29,898 nt of DNA from Candidatus Micrarchaeota archaeon (GCA_043803815.1 JAZDJR010000024.1:1-29898), one strand, 5' to 3'; counted from the first letter of the stretch, positions 16,691 to 29,757 are shown. A program made the numbers and translations. Notes: generated from the sequence alone by a model not told the origin.

Positions 16691-16722
16691 AACCAAACTA
16701 ATAGTTTTTTATAAGTTTGGTT
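16691..16722 (+). promoter_or_regulatory. Palindromic operator enclosing the TATA box of the AbiE toxin-antitoxin operon
   Basis: AACCAAACT-A-ATA...TAT-A-AGTTTGGTT (12/13 paired) surrounds TTTATAA (16708-16714), ~25 nt before ATG 16736. Confidence 0.7.
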
Positions 16723-16735
16723 GCTTCTACTTTTT

Positions 16736-17383
16736 ATGACGATTCCGTTGAAAAACCGGTTGAAGCGCCAGGCCCAAGTCCGATTGGCGGAACTGCAGGA
16801 CGAAGCGGTCGATATCGTGTACCGGGTTCTTCCAAACGCGGTCTTGCACGGGGGAACCGCCATCTGGCGCTGTTTTTCTGGAAACCGCTTTTCCGAAGAC
16901 CTTGATTTTTACGCGCTCGCCGGAAAAAACTTTCGAGAAGAGCTTGAAGCCGAGCTCCGGAAAAGAAGCCTGATTTTGAGCAAGTTTAAGCAAACGGAAA
17001 ACGTTATTTTTGCCAAGATTTCAAACCAACAAACCGAGGTTTCACTGGAAATCGCCGTGCGCAAAAGCCCCAAAACCGTTTCAACGGCTTATGAACGGAC
17101 GGACGGCTCTTTTGTCGAAATATTCTCGCTTTCCCCCGAAGATTTTTTGGCTGAAAAAGCCAGCGCGTACCAGAACCGAAGACTGGTGCGCGACTTGTAC
17201 GATGTTTTTTTCCTTTTGGACAAAAGCGATTCTATTGAAAAAGCGAAAAAAGAACTCGAAAAACTTGTGCACGAATTCAAGCCGCCCAAAGACGAAAAAA
17301 ACCTGAAAATTCTCGTCTATTCCGGAATCGCGCCTTCCGTCAATTCCATGCTGGAAAGAATCCGAAAGAGGCTTTCCAAATGA
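16736..17383 (+). CDS. AbiEii/AbiGii-family nucleotidyltransferase (type IV TA toxin)
   Basis: LHGGTAI, RFSEDLDF, AEKA.A...R...RDLYD motifs. Confidence 0.92.
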   Translation: MTIPLKNRLKRQAQVRLAELQDEAVDIVYRVLPNAVLHGGTAIWRCFSGNRFSEDLDFYALAGKNFREELEAELRKRSLILSKFKQTENVIFAKISNQQTEVSLEIAVRKSPKTVSTAYERTDGSFVEIFSLSPEDFLAEKASAYQNRRLVRDLYDVFFLLDKSDSIEKAKKELEKLVHEFKPPKDEKNLKILVYSGIAPSVNSMLERIRKRLSK

Positions 17384-18018
17384 AATACGCCAAAGAACTG
17401 CGGGAAGAGTTCTCAAAAAAACCGGTTTTTTCGCTTCGCGATATCCGAACACGGTTCGCAGCCAAAAAAATCAGCTCGGCTTATGCCAACGTGCTGTTGA
17501 ACCATCTGCTGAAGCGAAACGAAATGCATCGCATTGCCAGAGGATTCTATTCGTTCCACAACGATCCTAACGTGATAGCGTTTGCCATCCAGCCATCCTA
17601 TTTTGGCCTGCAGGACGCCTTGTCTTTTCACGGCTTATGGCAGCAGCAAACCATTCCCATTCTGATAACCCCTAGGAAAATCCGGAGCAGTTTTCGCCTT
17701 GTTTTAGGTTCCAAGGTATTGGTCAAGCGGACCCAACGAACCATGTTTTTTGGCATTGAAATGAAAAAATACCTGGATTTCTGGGTTCCGGTTTCGGACC
17801 CTGAAAAAACCCTCATTGATTTTTTTTATTTCAGCCAGCCGCTGGAAAAAACCGTTCTGAAAAAATTATTGAAAAAAACCAATCCAAAAAAATTGCGGGA
17901 ATACCTCAAACAAGTGCCGAAAAAAACGCGAAAAAAAATCGAAAAAGCGTTAAAACTACGGCACAGGTTCAATGAACTCTGGAAAAAAGCAAAAAAACCG
18001 AAAAATGGCAGAAATTAG
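17380..18018 (+). CDS. AbiEi-like antitoxin (winged-HTH regulator)
   Basis: wHTH ending RIARGFY, PSYFGLQDALSFHGL..Q, VSDPEKTLID; ATGA overlap with the toxin gene. Confidence 0.85.
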   Translation: MKYAKELREEFSKKPVFSLRDIRTRFAAKKISSAYANVLLNHLLKRNEMHRIARGFYSFHNDPNVIAFAIQPSYFGLQDALSFHGLWQQQTIPILITPRKIRSSFRLVLGSKVLVKRTQRTMFFGIEMKKYLDFWVPVSDPEKTLIDFFYFSQPLEKTVLKKLLKKTNPKKLREYLKQVPKKTRKKIEKALKLRHRFNELWKKAKKPKNGRN

Positions 18019-19731: not shown

Positions 19732-20703
19732 GGCTCTGTAGAAATCCTTTTTAAATAAAAGAAAACGCTCATGATACTGGTGGTGTCATGAGCATTTATG
19801 GTATCAAGGTTTCAAAGTTTTATAAACTTTGCTTTCGGGTTTTTTCCGAAGTTCGATTCCCGCTTCGGTTTTCGAGGTTCTCGAAAACCATGTACGGAAA
19901 CTTTGTACACGTGTTTTTGCTCGTGTACAAAGAACGGCTAAACGTGTCGTACCGGCGTTTTGTCCGCATTGTCGAAGAGTCCGGACTCTGCCGCATGCTA
20001 TGCATCAAACGCGTTCCCCACTTTACCACGCTGCAAAAGTTTTTGCAACGCGTCAACAAAGCCCTGTTTGAAAAAATGGTGAGAGCCTGCCACAAGTTGT
20101 TGAACCTGAAAAACGTGGAAGCCTGCGTGGACGGCACCGGTTTCTCAAACACCAACCCGTCGCACCACTACATCAAACGCGTGGACGGCGTAGAGGTCAA
20201 AAACTACACCAAAACCACGTTTTTAACCGATAATAACACCAAACTCATTTTGAACGTGAAAACCCATTCAGACCACGCTAGTGAAGCACTGGACTTTGTG
20301 CCGCTCATTCAAGAGTTAAAGTCGGCATTGTCCTGCGTGCTGGCCGACAAAGGCCACGACTCTGCCGCGAGTCGCGAGTTCTGCTGGAACAATGATATCG
20401 AGGTTCACATTCCGTTGCGCGACTGGAAAAACAACCGCCGCGGTTACGGTCACAAAACCCATTTTTCAAAACAAAGAAAAAAAGCTGAAAAACTGTTTGA
20501 CCCAGTCCTGTATCGGCGACGTGCACTCATCGAGTCGGTCAACTCGGCCATCAAACGAACGTTGGGCGATTGGTTGCTGGCCCGCAACCCCAGCAACCAA
20601 CAAAAACAAGCCACCCTAAAAGCCTTGACTTATAACTTGGAAATTTTGGACAAAACCATCAAAATCCGGGTCTATATAAGCGATTGAGGATTTCTACACC
20701 GCC
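19732..20703 (+). mobile_element. Complete IS5-family insertion sequence (972 bp; IS903-like GGC ends, 9-bp TSD)
   Basis: TIRs GGCTCTGTAGAAATCCT / AGGATTTCTACACCGCC (15/17); direct repeat TTACAAAAA at 19723-19731 and 20704-20712. Confidence 0.93.
19788..20687 (+). CDS. IS5-family DDE transposase
   Basis: VPHFTTL, CVDGTG, LADKGHD, YRRRALIESVNSAIKR; intact 299-aa frame. Confidence 0.93.
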   Translation: MSIYGIKVSKFYKLCFRVFSEVRFPLRFSRFSKTMYGNFVHVFLLVYKERLNVSYRRFVRIVEESGLCRMLCIKRVPHFTTLQKFLQRVNKALFEKMVRACHKLLNLKNVEACVDGTGFSNTNPSHHYIKRVDGVEVKNYTKTTFLTDNNTKLILNVKTHSDHASEALDFVPLIQELKSALSCVLADKGHDSAASREFCWNNDIEVHIPLRDWKNNRRGYGHKTHFSKQRKKAEKLFDPVLYRRRALIESVNSAIKRTLGDWLLARNPSNQQKQATLKALTYNLEILDKTIKIRVYISD

Positions 20704-20755
20704 TTACAAAAAGAAAAGGTTAAAAGCCTCGTTGAAGTTATTTTATGGGCAAATA

Positions 20756-23704
20756 ATGAACTCTAATCCTCAAAAAAAAGGCCAATCAGCTCTTGAATAT
20801 TTGATGACTTACGGCTGGGGGTTGGTTGTTGTTGGAGTTGTTATTGCGGCGCTTGTGTTAATTAATCAACCTTCGCTTATAGCCAACAGTACTACCGGGT
20901 TTAACACCAGTTTGCTTGTTAAAAATACGCTTTATCCGAAAAGTGCGTATGAACCCTTGCAGCTCATTATTGTAAACCAGAGCGGTCGCACCTTAAGCGG
21001 CGTAACGCTTGCCGTTAAAGTCAATGGTGCGAGCATTACCGGGACAACCATTGTTGACCCGCAAATCCTCAAGCCCGGCCAGCAAGCCAGCCTGTTTTTT
21101 ATGCCCACTACTCCCGCTAAATGGTCCAGTGGAAAATTGCAAGTCGAAATTATGATTACCGCGCAAGACCAGGACCTGTTTCAAAAAGCCAGTACCGGAC
21201 AAATCACTTTTCAAGTAAGCCCAAGCGGACCCATCTGCTATTCGATTGTCCTTGAACCATCCACGATTACGCAAACCGGCGGCACAGCCGCTGTCACGTT
21301 ATTATACGACAACTTATCCGCGCCTGTTACGGTTACCAATTTTGATTGTAGTGGTGGCATTGCCGGAGGCGCATCATTCGTGTGCACTGACGGTTCTTGT
21401 AGCGGAAAAACCTGCGGCAACTATACTGCGGGCGAAGAAGGATCGCATTCGATCACAGCTACGTTAACTTACGCGGGCGGAACGGTTACGTGCCCGGCCA
21501 CCACTCTGACCGTCAGTACGCAACCGCGCTGCACGGCGAGTTTTAATCCAAACTCGATTTTCACAACCGGTTCAACGGCGTTGGATATAACTTCTTATAA
21601 CAATTTTACTGGAAAACCAACCACAGCTTCAGGCGTGGTTTGCGGAGACGGCGCGGGTCCTAACGGAACTCAACCGGTTTCGTGTACTGCTGTGGGAAAC
21701 GGAACCTGTTCGGGTTTGTCCTGTAGCGGATACGCGCAGGGAATCTATAGCGCTCCGGCGGTTACGGTTTCATTAATGAACGGTTCTACCCCAATTTCGT
21801 GTTGGGTTGATAACACGCTTACGGTAAACACGCCTCCCGTTCCCGCGTGCAATTTTACCGCGCCGGCCAGCGGCGCTACGCCGTACTTTTCGGGGACTCC
21901 GCTGGCTGTTCCGGTAACCGTTTCGTATAGCACTTTTTCGCCGGTTCCAAACCAAAGTTATTATAGCGACCCTAACACTTCAACTTCTCCTAAAATTCAA
22001 TGCGTTTCCGGAAATCCGGGAACAGAAGTACCTCTTACTTGCACCAGCAGTCCGTGTACGGGAACTTGCACGTACACCGACGGCGGAAGCAAAGCGTTAT
22101 CCGCTATCGGATTGAAAAATTCAACAAGCGGCCAAACCGCGTTGTGCACCGGAACGCCGACTATTTCAATCGGTTATTGCGGGGATAGCCAATTGCAAAC
22201 CTCGAACGAACAATGCGATAGCAACTCTCTTTTGAACGGAAAAGACTGCACCACAGTTCTAGGCGGATATACTGGCGGAACCTTGGCTTGTAAATCGGAT
22301 TGCACGTTTGACACAAGCGGTTGTTTTTCCACGAATTTGAATGCCTGCGGAACCCCGCTTGGCGGCTGGCGCAACAACCAAACATATACGCTTTTGAACG
22401 ATGTGACCGCTTCTTCGGGCCAGGCCTGTTTTTCGTTTGATGCCGTTGCTTCCAATGTCACCTTAAATTGCAACAACAAAACAATTGCCGGCGATTCGGG
22501 AGCGCCCAACGGTGCCATTGATATTTTAGGAAACGGAAATACGGTTCAGAACTGCATCATTAATAATTCTCCCGCGGGAACCGGAATATACGTAGCCGGC
22601 ACAAACAACAAGCTTTCAAACAACACCATTCAAAACACGACCACGGGAAAATCAATTTGGGTGCTTAGCGGCGGAAACAACCAGCAGCAAGGAGAACAAG
22701 CCAATATTTGTCCTGTCGGAACTTGTTTTGAAACCGACCCGCTTAATTCCAGTTCTTCCAGAATTTGCGGAGATTACGGCGGACGCAATTGCGGAGCACC
22801 AATAGCACTTCCTGCCCTATGCGCCCCACCCGCAGGCGGCTGGATTAGCGGCCAAGCATACACGCTTACAGGACCAATAACCGATACTCTTTCTTCCACA
22901 TGTTTTACGATTAACCAACCCAATATTACCCTGGACTGCCAAGGAAAAACCATCACGGCAAGCAAGACTGGCAGCGTGGGAATCAGCATTACGGCTCCGG
23001 CCCAGAATGTGACTGTTAAAAACTGCACGATTACGGCAGGAAATCAGGGAGTCATGATTGCAGCAAGCAATGCCAAAGTGGAATACAACACGATTTCAGT
23101 GTTTAATACGGGCTACACTTTATCTGTCGCGGGAGTTCTCGCAAATTGCACAGCAAGCCTCTGCACCGGAATCAGCATCAGCCACAACACGTTTCCAAGC
23201 ACTAGCAAAAATCAAGCAGTCTCGGTAAGAGGGGCAACTGGTTTTGGTGTTACTAACAGTACAATTAGTAACAATACCATTGATTATGAAGGAACTACAA
23301 GGACCTACTCCAGCATTTTCTTTGACTCCTTTGTTTATGGGAACACGCTTTCTAACAACTCGATTACAAGCGACAGGAATTACGATAGCGCTGTCGGTTC
23401 CGGTGCCATCATATACATACAAGTTAGTGGACAGAATTCGATTTTGGACAATACCATTAATGCCACTAATTCGACCTCACCCCCAATTGGAATATATACC
23501 GCTGGCGGTACCTGTGCAAACAACAATTTTAGCGGGAACAACTTTTGCACTGGATACTACGGTGCTGCCATTTACAATAATTGCCCCACACCACAAGCAA
23601 CGAACCCAAACAGATGCCCGACAAGCAAATGCTATGATACTCAAGGAACCACTATTTGCGTTGCAAAGAATTCATTCAGCAATTGCAAAGGAACTCCCTG
23701 CTAA
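20756..23704 (+). CDS. Giant type IV pilin-like adhesin (class III signal peptide, Cys-rich Ig-like modules, two beta-helix domains)
   Basis: KKGQ-SALEYLMTYGW + hydrophobic helix; CGD..EQCD...C..GG.LAC..DC.FD.SGC Cys-rich motif; duplicated GGW..YTL...CF...N.TL.C..KTI caps followed by Asn-ladder repeats. The ORF-track start (20684) lies in the IS end, so ATG 20756 is used. Confidence 0.85.
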   Translation: MNSNPQKKGQSALEYLMTYGWGLVVVGVVIAALVLINQPSLIANSTTGFNTSLLVKNTLYPKSAYEPLQLIIVNQSGRTLSGVTLAVKVNGASITGTTIVDPQILKPGQQASLFFMPTTPAKWSSGKLQVEIMITAQDQDLFQKASTGQITFQVSPSGPICYSIVLEPSTITQTGGTAAVTLLYDNLSAPVTVTNFDCSGGIAGGASFVCTDGSCSGKTCGNYTAGEEGSHSITATLTYAGGTVTCPATTLTVSTQPRCTASFNPNSIFTTGSTALDITSYNNFTGKPTTASGVVCGDGAGPNGTQPVSCTAVGNGTCSGLSCSGYAQGIYSAPAVTVSLMNGSTPISCWVDNTLTVNTPPVPACNFTAPASGATPYFSGTPLAVPVTVSYSTFSPVPNQSYYSDPNTSTSPKIQCVSGNPGTEVPLTCTSSPCTGTCTYTDGGSKALSAIGLKNSTSGQTALCTGTPTISIGYCGDSQLQTSNEQCDSNSLLNGKDCTTVLGGYTGGTLACKSDCTFDTSGCFSTNLNACGTPLGGWRNNQTYTLLNDVTASSGQACFSFDAVASNVTLNCNNKTIAGDSGAPNGAIDILGNGNTVQNCIINNSPAGTGIYVAGTNNKLSNNTIQNTTTGKSIWVLSGGNNQQQGEQANICPVGTCFETDPLNSSSSRICGDYGGRNCGAPIALPALCAPPAGGWISGQAYTLTGPITDTLSSTCFTINQPNITLDCQGKTITASKTGSVGISITAPAQNVTVKNCTITAGNQGVMIAASNAKVEYNTISVFNTGYTLSVAGVLANCTASLCTGISISHNTFPSTSKNQAVSVRGATGFGVTNSTISNNTIDYEGTTRTYSSIFFDSFVYGNTLSNNSITSDRNYDSAVGSGAIIYIQVSGQNSILDNTINATNSTSPPIGIYTAGGTCANNNFSGNNFCTGYYGAAIYNNCPTPQATNPNRCPTSKCYDTQGTTICVAKNSFSNCKGTPC

Positions 23705-23950: not shown

Positions 23951-26900
23951 CTACTTGAATTTCGGCTTCCTTTTTTCCCGAAGCCAAAAAAAGCCGGCCA
24001 ATAGAAGCACTACAACAATCACAATGCCTACAATGGGAGCAACCGGCCCGCCAGTGACTGGCTCCGAGGACGGTGCCTGCGGTTGGAAAACCGACTGGCA
24101 AATTCCCCTTTCGCAAAGCCCGTTTGGACATGCGGTTCCATTGGTGGCAAAAGCAAAAACACAGTTTCCATCTCGGCAATAATCTACTGTGCAGGGGTTT
24201 GAATCGCCGCAGTTTTTTCCTTCACAGGAATTGACTTTTTCGAGTTCGAATAATAGGAGTGGTTTTTTGAATTGTTCCAGTTGTTCTTGGGTTGGAAGCG
24301 TTTCCTTGCTGAAAGTGTAGGAAATGGTTTTGGATTCTTTGGGCTCCAAATCGCCCACTGAAAATGCTACGATGGGGTCGGCTTTCACAATTTCAATTGC
24401 TGTCAAGCTTTCGATTTTAGCGGCATCCAGCAACAAGGATTTGGGGATTTCCTCGAAAACCCGAGCGGTTTTCATTTTCTGGTTGCAAGAATTGGTCACG
24501 TTCAAATCCAAAAATGCCTTGTAGCCAATGATTTGGCCTTGCGCATTCTTAATTGGGTTCACCCGCACGCTTCGCACAAACTGGTTTCCACTGCACAAAG
24601 CGATTTGGTTTCCAGTTCTCACTAACTCCTGCACGAATGGCAATTCCAGCAATTCTCCCGAAGAATCGTCTGCCGAGTACTCCTTGGTTGCTGACAATAT
24701 CGGTTCTTCTGAAGAACCTGGTTCTCCAGATGGATTGGAAATGGCAGTGCAGGTAACGGAGCAGCATCGCACGGAATCGTACGCATTTAACCAACCGCCT
24801 GAACAATTCTCGTCTGCCGTACAAATATCGCTTCCCGAATAATAGAAACAGGCAGGATAACCTCCACCACCCGTATTATTGTTATTTCCGGAGCTAACTG
24901 AAACCGTTACGGTTACATTGGCATCCAAACTGTTGTTGTCCGCGTTATCCGTCGCTTTCATGTAATACACATGGGTTCCGTTGGCTTGATTGGTAAAAGA
25001 ATAATTGGTATTGGTCCCGTTATTGACAAACGCCGAGTTTGCATTGCTGTCCACTGCTACCCAGTATCGCGCAATGCCCGAATTGGAATCGCTTCCCAAA
25101 TATTGGATGGTTACGGTTGAACTGGTGCTTGTGGAACCAGTAACCGGAGAAGAAATGCTGACAAGTGGGGCTGTTTTATCAACCAAAATGTAAACCGTGT
25201 TGATGTCGTCCCAGTTTCCGGTGTTATCAACGGCATTAAAATCCAACGCATAATTTCCGTCCGTGCCAAAGAAAATGTTTGTATCGTAAGCAGTCCACGC
25301 CCCATAACTGACACCTAAGTTTGAATCTGCATCTTTCCGGAAATATTTTGTTGAACAGCCCGAAAACGCATCGGAACAGGTTAAATGGATGTTAGCATCA
25401 GTCTTCTGCCACGCATAATTATTATCCGCCACTACACTGGGATTGGTTTTGTCCACTAAAACATAAAACGTGTTAGTGTCGCCGATATTTCCCGCGTTGT
25501 CAGTACTGTTGAAATCGATTGCCCAGTTTCCGTCGCTGGTAACCAGGATGTTCTTGTCAAACGCCTGCCAATTTCCCCAACTGATGCCGGAACCCGAATC
25601 CGTGTCCAAGCTATACCAAGTACTCGAACAACCAGAAGTAGCATCCACACACGTCAAATGAGCATTGGCATCGTGATTCTGCCAAGTAATATTGCCGTCC
25701 CAGCTTGTTGAGGGTTTGGTGTTGTCTATCATGAAATTGTTGTCCGAGGAATTGAAATCGGTTTGGTTTCCGTCAGTAATGCTTATGAGCAGAAAATAAT
25801 TAGCGTCCACTATGTTTGAGATGTTCCAGTCTATCGAGCATTGTGTTGAATCAAAAAAATTGGTATCCTGACAATGATAAGGGCCGCTGGTGGAAAGACT
25901 GCTCAGATTCAAGTCTCTGACAATGCTGGTTCCGGTTCCTTGTGTGGCGGAAAGAGAATAATTCAGGTCCACCAACAAATTGTTGGTGTCATCTTGCACG
26001 TTAAAATCAATGGTCAGATTGCCATCGCGCGCATACGAAAAGACCGGAAGCGGCTGGTTATCCAAGTAGGAATCAATCCGCGTCAAATTGACATCAGGCG
26101 GCAAATTAACAGTAAGAGAAACACTAGCCGTTGAACTATTATTATCCGCATTATCATTGGCGATTACATAATACGTGTGAAGACCGCTTGTTTGACTGGT
26201 AAAAGAATAGGCAGTATTGGTTCCGTTGTTGACCCAGGTCGTGCCGTCACTAGATACCCAGTATGTCCGAATACCAGAGTTTTCGTCCGAACCCGAATAG
26301 GACAGGTTAACCGTAGAACCAAGCTGCGTAGAACCATTGGCTGGGGAAGAAATGCTAATGGTTGGCGCGGTTTTGTCAATCAAAACGTAAAACGTGTTGG
26401 TGTCTCCGATGTTTCCTGCATTATCCGTTGAATTGAAATCAATTGCCCGGTTCCCGTCCAGCGTAACCAGGATGTTCTTGTCAAACGCCAGCCAATTCCC
26501 CCAACTGATGCCCGAACCCGAATCCGTGTCCAAACGATACCAAGTACTCAAACAGCCAGAAGTAGCATCCACACACGTCAAATGAACATTGGAATCTGTT
26601 TTCTGCCAAACAATATTGCCATCCCAGGAAGTGGAGGGTTTGGTATTGTCAATCATGAAATTCTTGTCTGATGCCTTGAATCCTTCCGCCACGTTGTGAA
26701 AGTACAGTAGCGCATAATAGTTTCCGTCCGCGACATTGCTGATGTTCCAGTCAAAGGCACAGTGCGTTGAATCCAAAAAATTAGTGTCATCACAAGTAAA
26801 AAAACCAGACACAATATTGAAGTCCTTGAATACGCTGGTTCCGGTCGCATACGTTGCATTTGCCGAATAATTAAAGTCAACCGCAAAATTCTGGTCATAG

Positions 26901-28300
26901 GTTCCAATCGCATTAAAATCCATGGTCAAATTACCATCGCGCGCAGACGAAAAAACGGGAAGCGCACCGGAAAAAGGATTATTATCCACTTTATTAATAG
27001 TGCTTGTGATGGTGTGCTGGGCACGCAACTGCATATCCCACAACTGGCTAATCGTAATAACATCCAAATTAGTCCCATTCGAATCCAAGGTCGCCAAAAA
27101 ATCGATGAACGAATTGAAATCACTGATGCTCCAGTCCATCGACGTATCGGCACCGGTTTTTAAGTTGTGAAAATTGAATACGCACACATCGTTCTGGTCC
27201 ACGCAATTCCAGACCCTGCCCTCAACTGTTGCAAGCGGAACTGGAAAGCCAACCGACACCCTGGGAAGGTAGTACGGGTCGCGCATGGGAAAATTATAAT
27301 CCGCCGTAGCCAAACTAGTGGCAGCCGTGCTGATAAAATCATCAATCGCGAATTTGATGGCGGTACTGGTCACGCCGCCAGGATACGCGTAATGCATCGA
27401 GGCCCGGGTCCAGCCGTTCCCGTCAATCAGGTTTTTGTTCTGGTTTATGTCCGCCACGGCATCCGAAACGGAAAGACCTGTCAAAGTGGTGGCGCCATGC
27501 GTTCCAATATCCCAGCCAGCATTGTACATTTCCTGGATTTGCGCAATAGACAGTTTACCGGTATCCCCTGGACTGTTTCCGGCGCTGTTCATAATCAAAA
27601 AACTGGTTCCCTTGAAACCCTTTTCAGCCATTTTTGGATAGGCCGCGGTATACTCTGAAACATAATCGTCATCGAATGTCAAGAGAATTTTGGCCCCAGT
27701 AAATTGCCTTTTGTAAAACTGGATTCTATCAAAGGTTATATTGAAGTCATTTCCACTGGCTGAAGCAGTTTGAATCCGGATTTGTCCAACCGAACTCATG
27801 CTCATCAAAGGACTGTTTTTGGAACAGGTGTCCATATTAATCCAGCCCACATGCTTTTGGTATTTGTCGAAAATATAGGAGTTAAGTGATGGTACCACAT
27901 ACGTCAAAAAACTGCAGGACCAATAAGCGCTAATATCGGTATTCGCGACAAAAATAGTAGGGCCGCTCGTGCTCTCGGAATTCTGGTCTGTATAATAATC
28001 AAAACGCAGAATATTGTAGGAGGAATCCAGTCCATAAAGGGCAGTAAAATTCTTTACCCGGCTGGCCTTGACGAGTGCCCCATTGGTTGTACCCAACCGG
28101 ACGCCGTACGAATCATTGGTGCGCGAAGAATTAGTATCCTCTTCCACCGAAGAACCAGCAGGCGTGACAGCAACCCATTTGCCGGTTCCCACGCCTTCAT
28201 TCATGTCGCTTACGGTCACGCGGTCATTGACAAGCGAAAAAGCGTTCATGCTGAGCACTAACAAAAAAAGCAAGACAAGAAAAATGTGGCAACGATTCAA
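23951..28300 (-). CDS. Large membrane-anchored surface protein: polysaccharide deacetylase (CE4/NodB-like) domain + Ig-like repeats + Cys-rich regions + C-terminal TM
   Basis: Signal peptide; ILLTFDDD, WDIGTHG, YAYPGG, FNFH; repeated D.T.P...D.AGN Ig-like units; C-terminal IVGIVIVVVLLLAGFFW + basic tail; RBS GAGGGA. Confidence 0.88.
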   Translation of the reverse strand: MNRCHIFLVLLFLLVLSMNAFSLVNDRVTVSDMNEGVGTGKWVAVTPAGSSVEEDTNSSRTNDSYGVRLGTTNGALVKASRVKNFTALYGLDSSYNILRFDYYTDQNSESTSGPTIFVANTDISAYWSCSFLTYVVPSLNSYIFDKYQKHVGWINMDTCSKNSPLMSMSSVGQIRIQTASASGNDFNITFDRIQFYKRQFTGAKILLTFDDDYVSEYTAAYPKMAEKGFKGTSFLIMNSAGNSPGDTGKLSIAQIQEMYNAGWDIGTHGATTLTGLSVSDAVADINQNKNLIDGNGWTRASMHYAYPGGVTSTAIKFAIDDFISTAATSLATADYNFPMRDPYYLPRVSVGFPVPLATVEGRVWNCVDQNDVCVFNFHNLKTGADTSMDWSISDFNSFIDFLATLDSNGTNLDVITISQLWDMQLRAQHTITSTINKVDNNPFSGALPVFSSARDGNLTMDFNAIGTYDQNFAVDFNYSANATYATGTSVFKDFNIVSGFFTCDDTNFLDSTHCAFDWNISNVADGNYYALLYFHNVAEGFKASDKNFMIDNTKPSTSWDGNIVWQKTDSNVHLTCVDATSGCLSTWYRLDTDSGSGISWGNWLAFDKNILVTLDGNRAIDFNSTDNAGNIGDTNTFYVLIDKTAPTISISSPANGSTQLGSTVNLSYSGSDENSGIRTYWVSSDGTTWVNNGTNTAYSFTSQTSGLHTYYVIANDNADNNSSTASVSLTVNLPPDVNLTRIDSYLDNQPLPVFSYARDGNLTIDFNVQDDTNNLLVDLNYSLSATQGTGTSIVRDLNLSSLSTSGPYHCQDTNFFDSTQCSIDWNISNIVDANYFLLISITDGNQTDFNSSDNNFMIDNTKPSTSWDGNITWQNHDANAHLTCVDATSGCSSTWYSLDTDSGSGISWGNWQAFDKNILVTSDGNWAIDFNSTDNAGNIGDTNTFYVLVDKTNPSVVADNNYAWQKTDANIHLTCSDAFSGCSTKYFRKDADSNLGVSYGAWTAYDTNIFFGTDGNYALDFNAVDNTGNWDDINTVYILVDKTAPLVSISSPVTGSTSTSSTVTIQYLGSDSNSGIARYWVAVDSNANSAFVNNGTNTNYSFTNQANGTHVYYMKATDNADNNSLDANVTVTVSVSSGNNNNTGGGGYPACFYYSGSDICTADENCSGGWLNAYDSVRCCSVTCTAISNPSGEPGSSEEPILSATKEYSADDSSGELLELPFVQELVRTGNQIALCSGNQFVRSVRVNPIKNAQGQIIGYKAFLDLNVTNSCNQKMKTARVFEEIPKSLLLDAAKIESLTAIEIVKADPIVAFSVGDLEPKESKTISYTFSKETLPTQEQLEQFKKPLLLFELEKVNSCEGKNCGDSNPCTVDYCRDGNCVFAFATNGTACPNGLCERGICQSVFQPQAPSSEPVTGGPVAPIVGIVIVVVLLLAGFFWLREKRKPKFK
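25447..26670 (-). repeat. Intragenic direct repeat, offset 924 bp (308 aa)
   Basis: About 25447-25745 and 26371-26670 share identical blocks, e.g. CCAGAAGTAGCATCCACACACGTCAAATGA at 25632 and 26556. Confidence 0.9.
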
Positions 28301-28580: not shown

Positions 28581-29757
28581 ACCCTCTTGCGATAGGTATT
28601 TTTTCTTCCTCAGCGTTATTTGTGCAAAGTGATTTTTATGCGGAGGGAGAGAATGGTTTCTTTGGTTGGTTTTTCGTTGCGCCAAGCGCACAAGCGCGTT
28701 GAGCGCTTGGGCGACAGACTGATAGAGGTTGAAAAACTGGTGGACTGGGAGCGGTTTCGCCCCATTATTGCCAAACTGTATGCGGATGACCCGAAACTGG
28801 GTGGCCGGCCACACACCGACGAGGTTATTTTGGTGAAGTCGTTGGTTTTGCAGTCATGGTACAACCTGGCGGATGAGGAACTGGAATACCAGTTGGCAGA
28901 CCGGTTATCGTTCCAACGTTTTTTGGGTTTCCCAGAAAACATCCCTGACTATTCCACTATCTGGTATTGCAGGGAGCGCTTGACCAGTTCCAAACAGTTG
29001 GAAAAAATCTGGGTTGAACTCCAACGGCAACTTGATGCCAATGGTTTTGGTATCAAAAAAGGAGTCATTCAAGACGCAAGCATCGTGACCGCCGATGTTG
29101 GAAAGAAACGCCAGTACTTGGAAAAAAAGGCAGCCAAAGAAGGAAAGGTCATTACGTACAAGCCAAGGCAGATAGCGCACCAAGACCACGATGGTTCATA
29201 CACTGTCAAAAACGGACAAGTTGATTTTGGATACAAAATCCACCAAAAATGTGATGTGGAACGCGGGTTCATCCGAAGCATTGACGTGAGTACCGCGTCG
29301 TTGCATGACTCGCAAGTGGATTTATCCGAAAAAGAGGACGTTCGCATGTTTCGTGACAAAGGATACGCTGGAGTCCCACTCAAGCATGCGGGAGTAAAGG
29401 ACAAAACCATGCGAAAAGCCAATCGCGGTCAAGCGCTCACAAAAAAAGACAAGGACTACAACTTTCGCATTTCCAAAAAACGTTCTCGCGGAGAGCGACC
29501 ATTTTCAGTCATCAAACGCGTGTTTCACCGCGGCCATACCCTGCTCAAAAACCTGCTTCGAGTCACCGTTCAACAAGTCTTCAACGCGTTCGCCTACAAC
29601 GTGTACAACCTTGCCACGTATGCCAGAGGCTCATAGCCTCCGGCATCGACAAGCAACAAAAAAACAGGGAAAATCAAACGACAAACGGGTTTTGGCAGAC
29701 CAAAACCCGCCAAAACCAGTCAAAATTCAGCACATCTTAAAAAAACAAGGGATAATC
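28581..29757 (+). mobile_element. IS5-family element, right end apparently interrupted
   Basis: Candidate left end ACCCTCTTGCGATAG after TTA; transposase; right side ends ...GATAATC, then the IS3 end begins. Boundaries approximate. Confidence 0.65.
28653..29636 (+). CDS. IS5-family transposase (DUF772 + DDE)
   Basis: VDWERFR, GGRP, LQSWYNLAD..LE....DRLSFQRFLG, PDYSTIW, IQDASIV, FGYKIH, DKGY, RSRGERPF..IKR; RBS GGAGGGA before ATG 28653. Confidence 0.94.
   Translation: MVSLVGFSLRQAHKRVERLGDRLIEVEKLVDWERFRPIIAKLYADDPKLGGRPHTDEVILVKSLVLQSWYNLADEELEYQLADRLSFQRFLGFPENIPDYSTIWYCRERLTSSKQLEKIWVELQRQLDANGFGIKKGVIQDASIVTADVGKKRQYLEKKAAKEGKVITYKPRQIAHQDHDGSYTVKNGQVDFGYKIHQKCDVERGFIRSIDVSTASLHDSQVDLSEKEDVRMFRDKGYAGVPLKHAGVKDKTMRKANRGQALTKKDKDYNFRISKKRSRGERPFSVIKRVFHRGHTLLKNLLRVTVQQVFNAFAYNVYNLATYARGS

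What the first reader, a model, noticed from the sequence alone, without database searches (positions are those of the whole stretch)
24890..28210. Extreme D-x-N motif enrichment in the surface protein: candidate lineage-specific modification code
Seen: by hand count about 60 D-x-N tripeptides in 1449 aa (DFN, DGN, DTN, DLN, DAN, DWN...), over 45 of them in the Ig-repeat region. Some extend to D-x-N-x-S/T (DGNLT, DFNYS, DWNIS, DFNST) but many do not, and x varies between repeat copies while D and N persist. The neighbouring Asn-rich adhesin has very few. Known: Campylobacter PglB needs D/E-x-N-x-S/T; archaeal AglB normally uses N-x-S/T. Inference: an oligosaccharyltransferase that reads D-x-N without needing +2 S/T, or a repeated Ca2+-binding or cross-linking motif. 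This is the best candidate in the window for an undescribed system.
Basis: partly seen in the sequence, partly recalled or inferred. Interest (0 to 1): 0.75.

Follow-up and report, generated by a model that had tools for sequence, protein, structure and literature searches.

The report
Asp-x-Asn motif enriched in archaeal surface proteins
A large cell-surface protein of a tiny-genome archaeon carries five times more Asp-x-Asn tripeptides than chance predicts, and the same excess marks exported but not cytoplasmic proteins in related genomes, so it is a real and apparently undescribed signature whose function is still unknown.

Summary
The ORF at 23951..28300 (-), 1449 aa, has 61 D-x-N against 11.3 expected (z=16). 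N-x-D occurs 7 times. The excess exists only in the coding frame, survives collapsing the repeats (33 vs 6.3) and is present in all ten regions of the protein.

D and N are gained and lost together. E does not replace D, Pro is excluded at x, and Ser/Thr at N+2 is not enriched. In an AlphaFold model the motifs sit at strand ends and strand-entry turns.

Archaeal homologs of three unrelated families share the excess, and bacterial homologs do not. D-x-N is the most over-represented of 400 i,i+2 pairs in the exported proteins of three of the four same-order genomes analysed (O/E 1.7, 2.1, 3.2). Their cytoplasmic proteins give about 0.9. The fourth genome shows no excess (1.0).

The oligosaccharyltransferase reading is not shown. 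This genome's AglB keeps W-W-D (WWDEG). The genome with the strongest excess has WWGSG, but one with WWDYG also has D-x-N-rich proteins.

My best reading (0.45) is a solvent-exposed Asp/Asn capping or cation-binding pair. An undescribed modification motif remains possible.

The parts
23951..28300 (-). Gene for a 1449-aa exported, membrane-anchored multi-domain surface protein with 61 D-x-N. The TTG start at 28300 gives a hydrophobic signal peptide. The database copy starts 17 residues later.
28235..28300 (-). Residues 1-22, N-terminal hydrophobic signal sequence.
   Evidence: Read from the translation.
26990..27703 (-). Residues 200-437, the polysaccharide deacetylase (NodB/CE4-like) region. 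It holds 6 D-x-N against 1.4 expected.
   Evidence: Pfam PF01522 scores 47.4 bits against a cut-off of 23.1 over residues 200-315.
26654..26989 (-). Residues 438-549, copy 1 of an unnamed Ig-like domain ('domain A'). It holds 10 D-x-N against 1.5 expected.
   Evidence: Repeat detection, AlphaFold model, counts. The profile found this domain only in D-x-N-rich proteins (38 instances in 23 proteins).
26351..26653 (-). Residues 550-650, OmpL47-type domain 1. It holds 6 D-x-N against 1.2 expected.
   Evidence: NCBIfam NF047446 scores 110.6 bits against a cut-off of 40, with 5 stretches.
26066..26350 (-). Residues 651-745, Big_7 Ig-like domain 1. It holds 3 D-x-N against 0.7 expected.
   Evidence: Pfam PF17957 scores 35.1 bits against a cut-off of 24.1.
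25730..26065 (-). Residues 746-857, domain A copy 2. It holds 11 D-x-N against 1.8 expected.
25154..25729 (-). Residues 858-1049, OmpL47-type domains 2 and 3. They hold 6 and 7 D-x-N against 1.4 and 1.3 expected.
24890..25153 (-). Residues 1050-1137, Big_7 Ig-like domain 2. It holds 4 D-x-N against 0.7 expected.
23954..24889 (-). Residues 1138-1449: two Cys-rich stretches, an unassigned region, a C-terminal membrane anchor (residues 1420-1440, window 23981-24043) and a basic tail. This part holds 4 D-x-N against 0.8 expected.
   Evidence: Read from the translation.
20684..23704 (+). Neighbouring surface protein used as an internal contrast. It has a pilin-like N-terminus and a beta-helix region, 3 D-x-N against 2.6 expected and 30 N-x-S/T against 19.8 expected.

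Best explanation
The gene encodes an exported, C-terminally anchored surface protein. In order it has a signal peptide, a NodB-like domain, two copies of an unnamed Ig-like domain, three OmpL47-type and two Big_7 Ig-like domains, a Cys-rich region and a membrane anchor. The host is an archaeon with a genome of about 1.1 Mb, and the named close homologs are from DPANN archaea.

D-x-N in this protein is a paired structural surface motif. An Asp and an Asn two residues later both point to solvent. They sit either near the C-terminal end of a beta-strand (x is hydrophobic and points into the core) or in the tight turn that leads into a strand (x is Gly or polar, and Asn is the first strand residue).

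I infer that the short Asp side chain caps or clasps the Asn, through an Asx-type hydrogen bond or a shared divalent cation. This would stabilise and solubilise very acidic extracellular domains that are poor in Lys, Arg and Glu.

In this archaeal lineage the pair has replaced the D-x-T, D-x-S and E-G-x found at the same columns of bacterial homologs, and it has spread to many further sites and to unrelated exported proteins.

Shown: the enrichment, its directionality, the D/N coupling, its position relative to secondary structure, and its restriction to exported proteins and to certain lineages. Inferred: the hydrogen-bond or cation clasp and the benefit it gives.
For: (1) Position in the model. 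In the AlphaFold model of residues 438-650 (pLDDT 89.7), 5 of 16 motifs (x = F or W) lie in the last residues of strands. Most of the other 11 lie in the loop just before a strand, and one lies in the disordered N-terminus.

(2) The same pattern at scale. Over 1997 motifs in 57 enriched proteins, those with hydrophobic x (839) have hydrophobic residues at -3, -1 and +3. Those with x = G (261) show alternation at -5 and -3 and at +3, +5 and +7, as in a hairpin.

(3) Residue preferences. Glu cannot replace Asp: E-x-N has O/E 0.55 in enriched homologs and 0.76-0.88 in the exported sets of the three enriched genomes. This fits a geometric need for the short side chain. At x, Pro (0.11), Asp (0.17) and Arg (0.30) are excluded, and Phe, Gly and Leu are favoured.

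(4) Replacement of a structural pair. At the six recurrent column pairs of the OmpL47 domain, bacterial homologs have S-A-P, D-V-T, G-T-S, E-G-V/T, x-Y-W and A-x-K. Their most relevant enriched pairs are D-x-T (1.75) and D-x-S (1.86). D-x-N therefore sits where a structural pair already existed.

(5) Coupling. Among 102 de-replicated domains, the counts of D and N together / D alone / N alone / neither are 60/4/0/38, 41/3/5/47, 85/3/0/14 and 38/1/12/50 at four of the six pairs.

(6) No link to the N-x-S/T sequon, and this genome's AglB keeps W-W-D.
Against: - A purely structural pair does not explain why it is nine times commoner than N-x-D, since a side-chain clasp or a shared cation looks nearly symmetrical.
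- It does not explain why the excess is confined to exported proteins, or why it ranges from 1.0 to 3.2 between families of one order at similar expected levels.
- The excess also occurs in domains that are not beta-sandwiches: the NodB part (6 vs 1.4) and the VWA part of the LVIVD-VWA protein (read).
- New motifs keep appearing at non-conserved columns at 2.7-2.9 times expectation. That is how a recognised linear motif would behave.
- I had no model coordinates, so solvent exposure and D-N distances were not measured.
- No known Ca2+-loop pattern is met.
Confidence: 0.45

Rival explanations
1. D-x-N is the acceptor or recognition motif of an undescribed modification of exported proteins, most simply Asn glycosylation that does not need Ser/Thr at +2. 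It would be read either by AglB variants whose Ser/Thr-pocket motif has drifted or by another enzyme on the outer face of the membrane.
For: - The motif is linear and directional, with 61 D-x-N against 7 N-x-D.
- D and N are coupled.
- Pro is excluded at x (0.11) and reduced after N (0.38).
- The excess is confined to exported proteins and is the top of 400 i,i+2 pairs in three genomes.
- It occurs in unrelated folds. The 17 most enriched proteins of G014 fall in 13 BLASTP-unrelated clusters, and only one holds the Ig modules.
- New sites arise at about three times expectation.
- The WWDxG motif, which with DK/MI forms the Ser/Thr pocket (PMC8342417, passages read), is unusually variable in this group. 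The third residue is not Asp in 43 of 146 genomes (decoded by eye).
- The four genomes analysed rank WWDYG 1.01 < WWDEG 1.71 and 2.11 < WWGSG 3.16.
Against: - This genome's only STT3 keeps W-W-D.
- G029 has WWDYG, yet three of its surface proteins have 29/9.9, 14/6.3 and 24/6.0 D-x-N.
- G003, G042 and G168 lack WWDEG and have homologs at O/E 4.1-5.4.
- Families f22 and f32 lack the Asp but rarely hold the module.
- Four genomes of related lineages are not independent points.
- Glu is not accepted at -2, unlike the bacterial D/E-x-N-x-S/T rule (that rule is recalled, not taken from a call).
- N-x-S and N-x-T stay at 1.0-1.24 in all four exported sets.
- There would be 16 sites in 213 residues, a very dense load.
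- No Asp/Asn hydroxylase, GT41 or transglutaminase family was found in this 85.6%-complete genome.
- Extra GT-C-like proteins occur in all four genomes, including the one without the excess.
Confidence: 0.2
2. D-x-N pairs are ligand-binding sites displayed in large numbers on the cell surface. They would bind divalent cations that bridge domains or neighbouring proteins into a lattice, or hydroxyl-rich ligands such as host glycans. The motif would then be an adhesion or cross-linking code rather than an internal stabiliser.
For: - Asp and Asn are common Ca2+ and sugar ligands (general knowledge, not from a call).
- The proteins are very acidic, with D 8.1%, E 2.3%, K 3.5% and R 2.2%.
- The excess is restricted to extracellular proteins.
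- Foldseek's better matches include the Ca2+-binding adhesin SiiE and an S-layer protein.
- Aromatic residues are enriched at -4, +3 and +4.
- The protein also carries a polysaccharide deacetylase-like domain.
Against: - The patterns of known Ca2+ loops are not met: D or N at +4 (0.42, 0.58), G at +5 (0.60) and D at +3 (0.23).
- The Foldseek matches are generic tandem Ig folds with TM 0.25-0.47.
- The directionality is unexplained.
- No binding was tested.
Confidence: 0.15
3. There is no function of its own. The excess is inherited from a few D-x-N-rich ancestral cassettes that spread by duplication and gene transfer among fast-evolving archaeal surface proteins, helped by Asp/Asn-rich composition.
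For: - In this genome the excess is concentrated. Six proteins carry 200 of 935 motifs, and the rest of the ORF set has O/E 1.05.
- 72% of the motifs in OmpL47 domains sit at six recurrent columns.
- The gene pair is bracketed by two transposase genes.
- The module is patchily distributed, in 99 of 201 genomes.
- Unrelatedness by BLASTP does not exclude remote homology.
Against: - Composition is controlled for, both by shuffles and by per-protein expectation.
- The excess is independent of G+C from 32% to 55%.
- It is also present outside the shared domains: O/E 3.67 over 688 motifs.
- It occurs in the NodB part of this protein and in LVIVD-VWA proteins, neither of which is an Ig repeat.
- D/N coupling and continued gain at new columns need selection.
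- Three unrelated families show the same split between archaeal and bacterial members.
Confidence: 0.1

Closest known systems
Bacterial N-glycosylation sequon D/E-X-N-X-S/T read by PglB (rule recalled from general knowledge)
   Same: There is an acidic residue two positions before an Asn. Pro is excluded between them (0.11). The motif is enriched on exported proteins.
   Different: There is no Ser/Thr requirement or enrichment at +2 (24.2% vs 22.5%). Glu does not substitute for Asp. The host is an archaeon with an STT3-type AglB. The density of up to 16 motifs per 213 residues is far above known sequon densities.
OmpL47-type beta-barrel / Big_7 Ig-like repeat surface proteins of bacteria
   Same: The domains are the same: NF047446 scores 110.6 bits and PF17957 scores 35.1 bits. 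The shared landmarks D29, D42, D77-x-x-G-N81 and D93-K-T-x-P are conserved in both groups.
   Different: Bacterial members have D-x-N O/E of 0.1-1.6. At the six motif columns they carry S-A-P, D-V-T, G-T-S, E-G-V/T, x-Y-W and A-x-K. The archaeal group also has a Cys pair at columns 27 and 34, where bacteria have Ala and Val.
Ca2+-binding loops of extracellular domains (EF-hand-like DxDxDG, cadherin DxNDN); patterns recalled
   Same: Asp at i and Asn at i+2 occur in extracellular beta-rich domains, and the proteins are acidic.
   Different: The further ligand positions are depleted rather than enriched: D/N at +4, G at +5 and D at +3. Many of the motifs lie within strands rather than in loops.
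Asx-turn / strand-capping preferences for Asp and Asn (general structural knowledge, recalled)
   Same: A short side chain is required at position i (Glu is excluded), and the motif sits at strand boundaries and tight turns.
   Different: General capping preferences give modest biases. Here the pair is enriched 4-7 fold, is specific to exported proteins and differs between related genomes.

Membership tests
OmpL47-type beta-barrel domain (NCBIfam NF047446) | Profile score above the curated cut-off | tested here: met
   110.6 bits against a cut-off of 40, with 5 stretches. Three full copies lie at residues 550-650, 858-956 and 957-1049.
Big_7 bacterial Ig domain (PF17957) | Profile score above the gathering cut-off | tested here: met
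   35.1 bits against 24.1, with 2 stretches.
Polysaccharide deacetylase, NodB/CE4 (PF01522) | Profile score above the gathering cut-off | tested here: met
   47.4 bits against 23.1, over residues 200-315.
Polysaccharide deacetylase, NodB/CE4 (PF01522) | Catalytic and metal-binding motifs (TFDD, H-x-x-x-H); motif definitions recalled | tested here: inconclusive
   TFDD is present (LLTFDDDY). At the expected second motif the sequence reads THGAT, with only one His (read). No alignment to a characterised enzyme was made.
PglB-type extended sequon D/E-x-N-x-S/T | Ser/Thr at +2 of the Asn | tested here: not met
   483 of 1997 D-x-N (24.2%) have S/T at +2, against 948 of 4208 other Asn (22.5%), with a background of 19.7%. 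At OmpL47 columns 70 and 62 the archaeal group lost the Thr that bacterial homologs have.
PglB-type extended sequon D/E-x-N-x-S/T | Glu accepted as well as Asp at -2 | tested here: not met
   E-x-N has O/E 0.55-0.56 in enriched homologs and 0.76-0.88 in the exported sets of the three enriched genomes.
PglB-type extended sequon D/E-x-N-x-S/T | Pro excluded at x | tested here: met
   Pro at x is 0.11 of background. This is also expected for strands and tight turns.
PglB-type extended sequon D/E-x-N-x-S/T | An oligosaccharyltransferase with a basic residue that reads the -2 acid (R331 of PglB, recalled) | not testable with these tools
   The PDB sequence search with the AglB returned STT3 and AglB chains but no PglB. 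No reliable alignment of that position was possible.
Canonical AglB/STT3 N-x-S/T glycosylation | An STT3-family enzyme with an intact W-W-D in the WWDxG motif | tested here: met
   There is one STT3 match, at 56.9 bits against a cut-off of 24.5. The motif FNWWDEGHW aligns to WWDYG of human STT3A. The fourth residue is Glu instead of Tyr.
EF-hand-like DxDxDG and cadherin DxNDN Ca2+ motifs | Further ligand residues at +4 (D/N), +5 (G) or +3 (D) | tested here: not met
   At +4, D is 0.42 and N is 0.58 of background. At +5, G is 0.60. At +3, D is 0.23.
Intramolecular isopeptide (Lys-Asn) cross-linked Ig domains | A conserved Lys, Asn and catalytic acid triad brought together in the fold | not tested
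   Lys is 3.5% of the protein. No coordinates were available to test proximity.

The most novel reading that the evidence does not exclude
In this order of small-genome archaea, D-x-N is the acceptor motif of an undescribed modification of exported proteins. It would be read by AglB enzymes whose Ser/Thr-pocket motif has drifted from WWDYG to WWDEG, WWSYG or WWGSG, or by a second outer-face enzyme. These cells would then coat their adhesins at a density of up to one site per 13 residues without needing the N-x-S/T sequon.
Probability: 0.15. Interest if true: 0.9.

Novelty: new variant of a known kind. Interest (0 to 1): 0.62.

Why it matters
The protein itself is an ordinary type, a multi-domain Ig-repeat surface protein. 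The sequence rule it obeys is not ordinary.

- It is a directional two-residue motif whose halves are gained and lost together.
- It ranks first among all 400 i,i+2 residue pairs in the exported proteins of three related genomes.
- It is at or below expectation in their cytoplasmic proteins and missing from bacterial homologs of the same domains.

My one phrase search of the open literature for the motif name returned five papers. None concerns surface proteins or archaea.

Either outcome would be of interest. If the motif is structural, it is a lineage-specific way of building extracellular domains, and useful for recognising and modelling surface proteins of uncultivated archaea. If it is a recognition motif, it points to an unknown protein modification, and perhaps to altered oligosaccharyltransferase specificity, in a group whose cell surfaces mediate attachment to host cells.

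The variability of the WWDxG motif in these AglB enzymes (43 of 146 without the Asp) is a testable observation in its own right.

Tried and rejected
- **Chance or composition.** Rejected by shuffles (z=16.1; z=11.6 for the non-redundant part).
- **A DNA-level motif.** Rejected: 61, 0 and 4 matches in the three frames.
- **One conserved position multiplied by repeats.** Rejected: 33 non-redundant sites, and about 16 distinct positions per two-domain module.
- **A property of the OmpL47, Big_7 or domain A folds alone.** Rejected:
  - O/E is 3.67 outside those domains in 36 enriched proteins.
  - Only one other protein of this genome holds those domains.
  - Five BLASTP-unrelated clusters are enriched in this genome and 13 in G014.
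- **An effect of G+C content.** Rejected: homologs at 32-55% G+C all show O/E 3.4-5.4.
- **A PglB-like D-x-N-x-S/T rule.** Rejected.
- **WWDEG as a requirement for D-x-N-rich proteins.** Rejected.
- **Presence or absence of STT3 as a discriminator.** Uninformative: found in 175 of 201 genomes.
- **Candidate modifying enzymes.** PF05118, PF13844 and PF01841 were not found in this 85.6%-complete genome. PMT_2-like GT-C proteins occur in all four genomes compared.
- **PDB sequence search of the protein.** No hit.
- **Foldseek against PDB.** Only generic tandem Ig folds.
- **Rfam on the window.** Nothing.
- **Earlier findings of this scan.** Nothing by place, words or sequence.
- **Second structure prediction.** The job for the LVIVD-VWA family (alignment A2) could not be run.
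- **Exported-protein analysis of G029.** Could not be run. Only four stretches were read.
- **Complex prediction.** Not used, because the report does not claim a protein-protein contact.

Full report
**The gene and its setting.** The window is one whole contig (C24) of a 1,083,160-base, 36-contig assembly with 46.6% G+C. The assembly is 85.6% complete. The finding lies inside a single ORF, 23951..28300 on the minus strand, 1449 aa.

The TTG start gives a hydrophobic signal sequence. The copy in the protein database starts 17 residues later. Profile searches and internal comparison give this architecture:

| Residues | Part |
|---|---|
| 1-22 | Signal peptide |
| 23-199 | Unassigned N-terminal region |
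| 200-437 | Polysaccharide deacetylase-like region (PF01522, 47.4 bits, matched over 200-315) |
| 438-549, 746-857 | Unnamed Ig-like 'domain A', two copies |
| 550-650, 858-956, 957-1049 | OmpL47-type domains (NF047446, 110.6 bits) |
| 651-745, 1050-1137 | Big_7 domains |
| 1138-1419 | Cys-rich stretches and an unassigned region |
| 1420-1449 | Membrane anchor (1420-1440) and basic tail |

The organism is an archaeon. Its genome holds an STT3/AglB that, among 14 control genomes, matched only the archaeal ones. The named close homologs of its surface proteins come from Diapherotrites, Micrarchaeota and related DPANN archaea.

The rest of the window holds housekeeping genes and an AbiEii/AbiEi pair. 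Two DDE transposase genes (19788-20684 and 28620-29633) bracket the two surface-protein genes. No glycosylation gene lies nearby.

- There are 61 D-x-N against 11.3 +/- 3.1 in shuffles, z=16.1. N-x-D occurs 7 times, D-N 13 times and D-x-x-N 5 times.
- 47 of the 61 lie in residues 438-1137.
- Collapsing the second repeat copies leaves 33 against 6.3, z=11.6. All ten regions of the protein are enriched four- to seven-fold.
- The DNA pattern GAYNNNAAY occurs 61, 0 and 4 times in the three coding-strand frames, so the signal is in the protein.
- The neighbouring surface protein has 3 against 2.6 expected.

**Anatomy of the motif.** I pooled 1997 motifs from 57 enriched proteins.

| Position | Depleted (relative to background) | Favoured |
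|---|---|---|
| x | Pro 0.11, Asp 0.17, Arg 0.30 | Phe 1.9, Gly 1.7, Leu 1.6 |
| After Asn | Asp 0.23, Pro 0.38 | His, Ile, Tyr, Val |

- Ser/Thr two residues after the Asn occurs in 24.2% of motifs, against 22.5% for all other Asn. The motif is therefore independent of the N-x-S/T sequon.
- Glu does not replace Asp: E-x-N has O/E 0.55.
- In a confident AlphaFold model of residues 438-650 (pLDDT 89.7, 16-sequence alignment), five motifs with an aromatic x lie in the last residues of strands. Most of the remaining eleven lie in the loop just before a strand.
- The pooled motifs show the same two settings. With hydrophobic x (839 motifs) there is hydrophobic alternation around the motif. With x = Gly (261 motifs) there is alternation on both sides, as in a hairpin.
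- I had no coordinates. Exposure is inferred from this alternation, not measured.

**D and N behave as one unit.** In 102 de-replicated archaeal OmpL47 domains, the six recurrent column pairs are almost always both present or both absent. Four of the six are shown:

| D and N | D only | N only | Neither |
|---|---|---|---|
| 60 | 4 | 0 | 38 |
| 41 | 3 | 5 | 47 |
| 85 | 3 | 0 | 14 |
| 38 | 1 | 12 | 50 |

Odds ratios range from 15 to infinity. Most control pairings of non-partner columns give 1 to 12, though a few reach 14-34.

72% of the motifs in this domain sit at those six column pairs. The rest are scattered over 40 other columns at 1.25 per domain against 0.46 expected. In domain A the figures are 1.4 against 0.49. 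The motif is therefore both conserved and still being gained.

**Comparison with homologs.** Of 119 homologs of the repeat region, 34 have O/E above 2.1. Every named one of these is archaeal: Heimdallarchaeaceae, Baldrarchaeia, Altiarchaeales, Diapherotrites, ainarchaeum, Micrarchaeota and an unclassified archaeon. The other 85 have O/E of 0.0-1.6. Their named members are nearly all bacterial (Knoellia, Terrabacter, Paenibacillus and others), plus two archaea, Methanocella and Methanoperedens.

At the six motif columns the low group carries S-A-P, D-V-T, G-T-S, E-G-V/T, x-Y-W and A-x-K. Its enriched pairs include D-x-T at 1.75 rather than D-x-N at 0.43.

In the enriched proteins the excess is 4.62 inside the shared domains and 3.67 outside them, over 688 motifs.

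Two unrelated proteins of this genome gave the same split:
- For the LVIVD-VWA protein (25 against 6.1), all 23 close homologs score 2.2-5.9; the named ones are Micrarchaeota, Diapherotrites or unclassified archaea. 94 of the other 97 score below 2.2.
- For the YadA-head/tail-fibre-like protein (29 against 6.1), the only broad homolog has 77 against 14.2. The median of all 120 listed proteins, mostly bacterial partial matches, is 1.08.

**A trait of exported proteins.** I called ORFs crudely and split them by hydropathy into 'exported' (N-terminal hydrophobic segment, at most two such segments) and 'cytoplasmic'. These classes are approximate.

| Genome | Family | G+C | Exported D-x-N | O/E | Cytoplasmic O/E |
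|---|---|---|---|---|---|
| G000 (this genome) | f1 | 46.6% | 466 vs 273 | 1.71 | 0.91 |
| G014 (closed, 1,048,949 bases) | f10 | 51% | 537 vs 254.5 | 2.11 | 0.91 |
| G025 (540,043 of about 900,000 bases read) | f7 | 37.5% | 310 vs 98.1 | 3.16 | 0.89 |
| G006 (800,000 of 839,632 bases read) | f6 | 24.6% | 303 vs 300 | 1.01 | 0.86 |

- In G000, G014 and G025, D-x-N ranks first of 400 i,i+2 pairs in the exported set.
- In this genome the excess is concentrated. Six proteins in five BLASTP-unrelated clusters carry 200 motifs, and the remaining ORFs have O/E 1.05.
- In G014, 17 of 1053 ORFs are enriched at p<0.001, against about 1 expected. All 17 have an N-terminal hydrophobic segment. They fall in 13 unrelated clusters, and only one holds the Ig modules.
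- In G025, 14 of 19 exported proteins with an expectation of at least 1.5 have O/E of 2 or more.
- In G006, D-x-N is not among the top pairs, and only five proteins reach p<0.001.
- The repeat module occurs in 99 of 201 genomes sampled from the phylum. Eleven homologs from eleven relatives, at 32-55% G+C, all have O/E 3.4-5.4.

**The oligosaccharyltransferase question.** This genome has one STT3 match. Its motif reads FNWWDEGHW and aligns with WWDYG of human STT3A. W-W-D is therefore intact and the fourth residue is Glu. According to the passages I read in PMC8342417, WWDYG and the DK/MI motif form the Ser/Thr-binding pocket.

A pattern for N-W-W-x-x-G-H-W matched 146 of 201 genomes. Decoded by eye, the third residue is Asp in 103 and is not Asp in 43:
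- Ser or Gly in 13 of 13 matches of family f7.
- Ser in 6 of 6 of f22.
- Asn in parts of f12, f23, f9, f26, f5, f13 and f4.
- Ser, Gly or Asn in 11 of 11 of f32.

The four genomes analysed rank WWDYG (G006, 1.01) < WWDEG (G000 1.71, G014 2.11) < WWGSG (G025, 3.16). That is suggestive, but several results speak against a link:
- The four lineages are related and not independent.
- G029 has WWDYG, and three of its module-bearing proteins have 29/9.9, 14/6.3 and 24/6.0.
- G003, G042 and G168 lack WWDEG and have homologs at 4.1-5.4.
- f22 and f32 lack the Asp but rarely hold the module.
- N-x-S and N-x-T remain at 1.0-1.24 in all four exported sets.
- STT3 itself is in 175 of 201 genomes.

No Asp/Asn hydroxylase, GT41 or transglutaminase family was found in this genome. 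PMT_2-like GT-C proteins occur in all four genomes compared.

**Reading.** This would be a solvent-facing Asp/Asn clasp or cap at strand boundaries, possibly sharing a cation (confidence 0.45).

Four results that this reading does not explain keep a recognition-motif reading alive at about 0.2: the nine-fold directionality, the restriction to exported proteins, the spread over unrelated folds, and the variation between sister families. A ligand-binding or cross-linking role (0.15) and plain inheritance (0.1) complete the list.

**Literature.** One phrase search for the motif name returned five papers, none about surface proteins or archaea. Searches on archaeal N-glycosylation and on DPANN surface proteins (listings only) showed nothing on such a motif. 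I read passages of one paper only (PMC8342417). Supplements were not consulted.

**Limits.**
- ORF calling and the exported/cytoplasmic split are crude.
- Taxon names come only from source labels of homologs.
- Families and genera of the genome collection are unnamed codes.
- The AglB variants were decoded by eye from the matched DNA.
- One structure model was made, without coordinates. A second could not be run.

Noticed in passing
G000 C35:9678-10424 (L001:1435-3609) and relatives G006, G014, G025, G029: The AglB/STT3 WWDxG motif is unusually variable in this archaeal group. Of 146 genomes matching N-W-W-x-x-G-H-W, 103 keep the Asp (mostly WWDEG, with WWDYG mainly in family f6). The other 43 have Ser, Gly or Asn in its place, for example WWSYG and WWGSG in all 13 matches of family f7. 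Family f8 (34 genomes, 29 with STT3) did not match the pattern at all.
   Followed up: partly
window 19788-20684 and 28620-29633: Two DDE (IS4/IS5-type, DUF772 + DDE_Tnp_1) transposase genes bracket the two large surface-protein genes. The pair may therefore be mobile.
   Followed up: no
window 20684-23704 (+): The neighbouring 1006-aa protein has an archaeal pilin-like N-terminus (QKKGQSALEYL followed by a hydrophobic stretch) and a weak beta-helix match. It has 30 N-x-S/T against 19.8 expected and no D-x-N excess. Its real start is probably the Met 24 residues into the listed ORF, because the listed start overlaps the end of the transposase gene.
   Followed up: partly
window 16721-18015 (+): An AbiEii nucleotidyltransferase toxin gene and an AbiEi antitoxin-like gene lie side by side. 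Here the toxin gene comes first.
   Followed up: no
window 26990-27703 (-), residues 200-437: The NodB-like domain keeps TFDD but shows THGAT where the H-x-x-x-H metal-binding motif is expected (motif recalled). The deacetylase may be divergent or inactive.
   Followed up: no
OmpL47 domain columns 27 and 34 (window residues about 576 and 583; also 884/891 and 975/982): The archaeal D-x-N-rich subgroup has Cys at two columns (78% and 74%) where bacterial homologs have Ala and Val. This is probably a lineage-specific disulfide.
   Followed up: no
G000 C36:16935-22700 (L004): Four adjacent genes for proteins with N-terminal hydrophobic segments all show D-x-N excess: 326 aa (13 vs 2.1), LVIVD-VWA 1143 aa (25 vs 6.1), 161 aa (5 vs 1.0) and 169 aa (3 vs 0.3). 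An orthologous-looking pair sits at G014 181363-185986.
   Followed up: partly
bacterial OmpL47 homologs P0028-P0122: Many actinobacterial homologs of about 2300 aa show the opposite bias: N-x-D at 15-28 per protein and D-x-N at 0-8. Pooled outside the shared domains, N-x-D is 1077 against 594 expected. The likely cause is a conserved motif in another repeated domain.
   Followed up: no
window 28300 vs database copy P0003: The public gene call for this protein starts 17 residues downstream and so loses the hydrophobic core of the signal peptide. The TTG start at 28300 fits an exported protein better.
   Followed up: no
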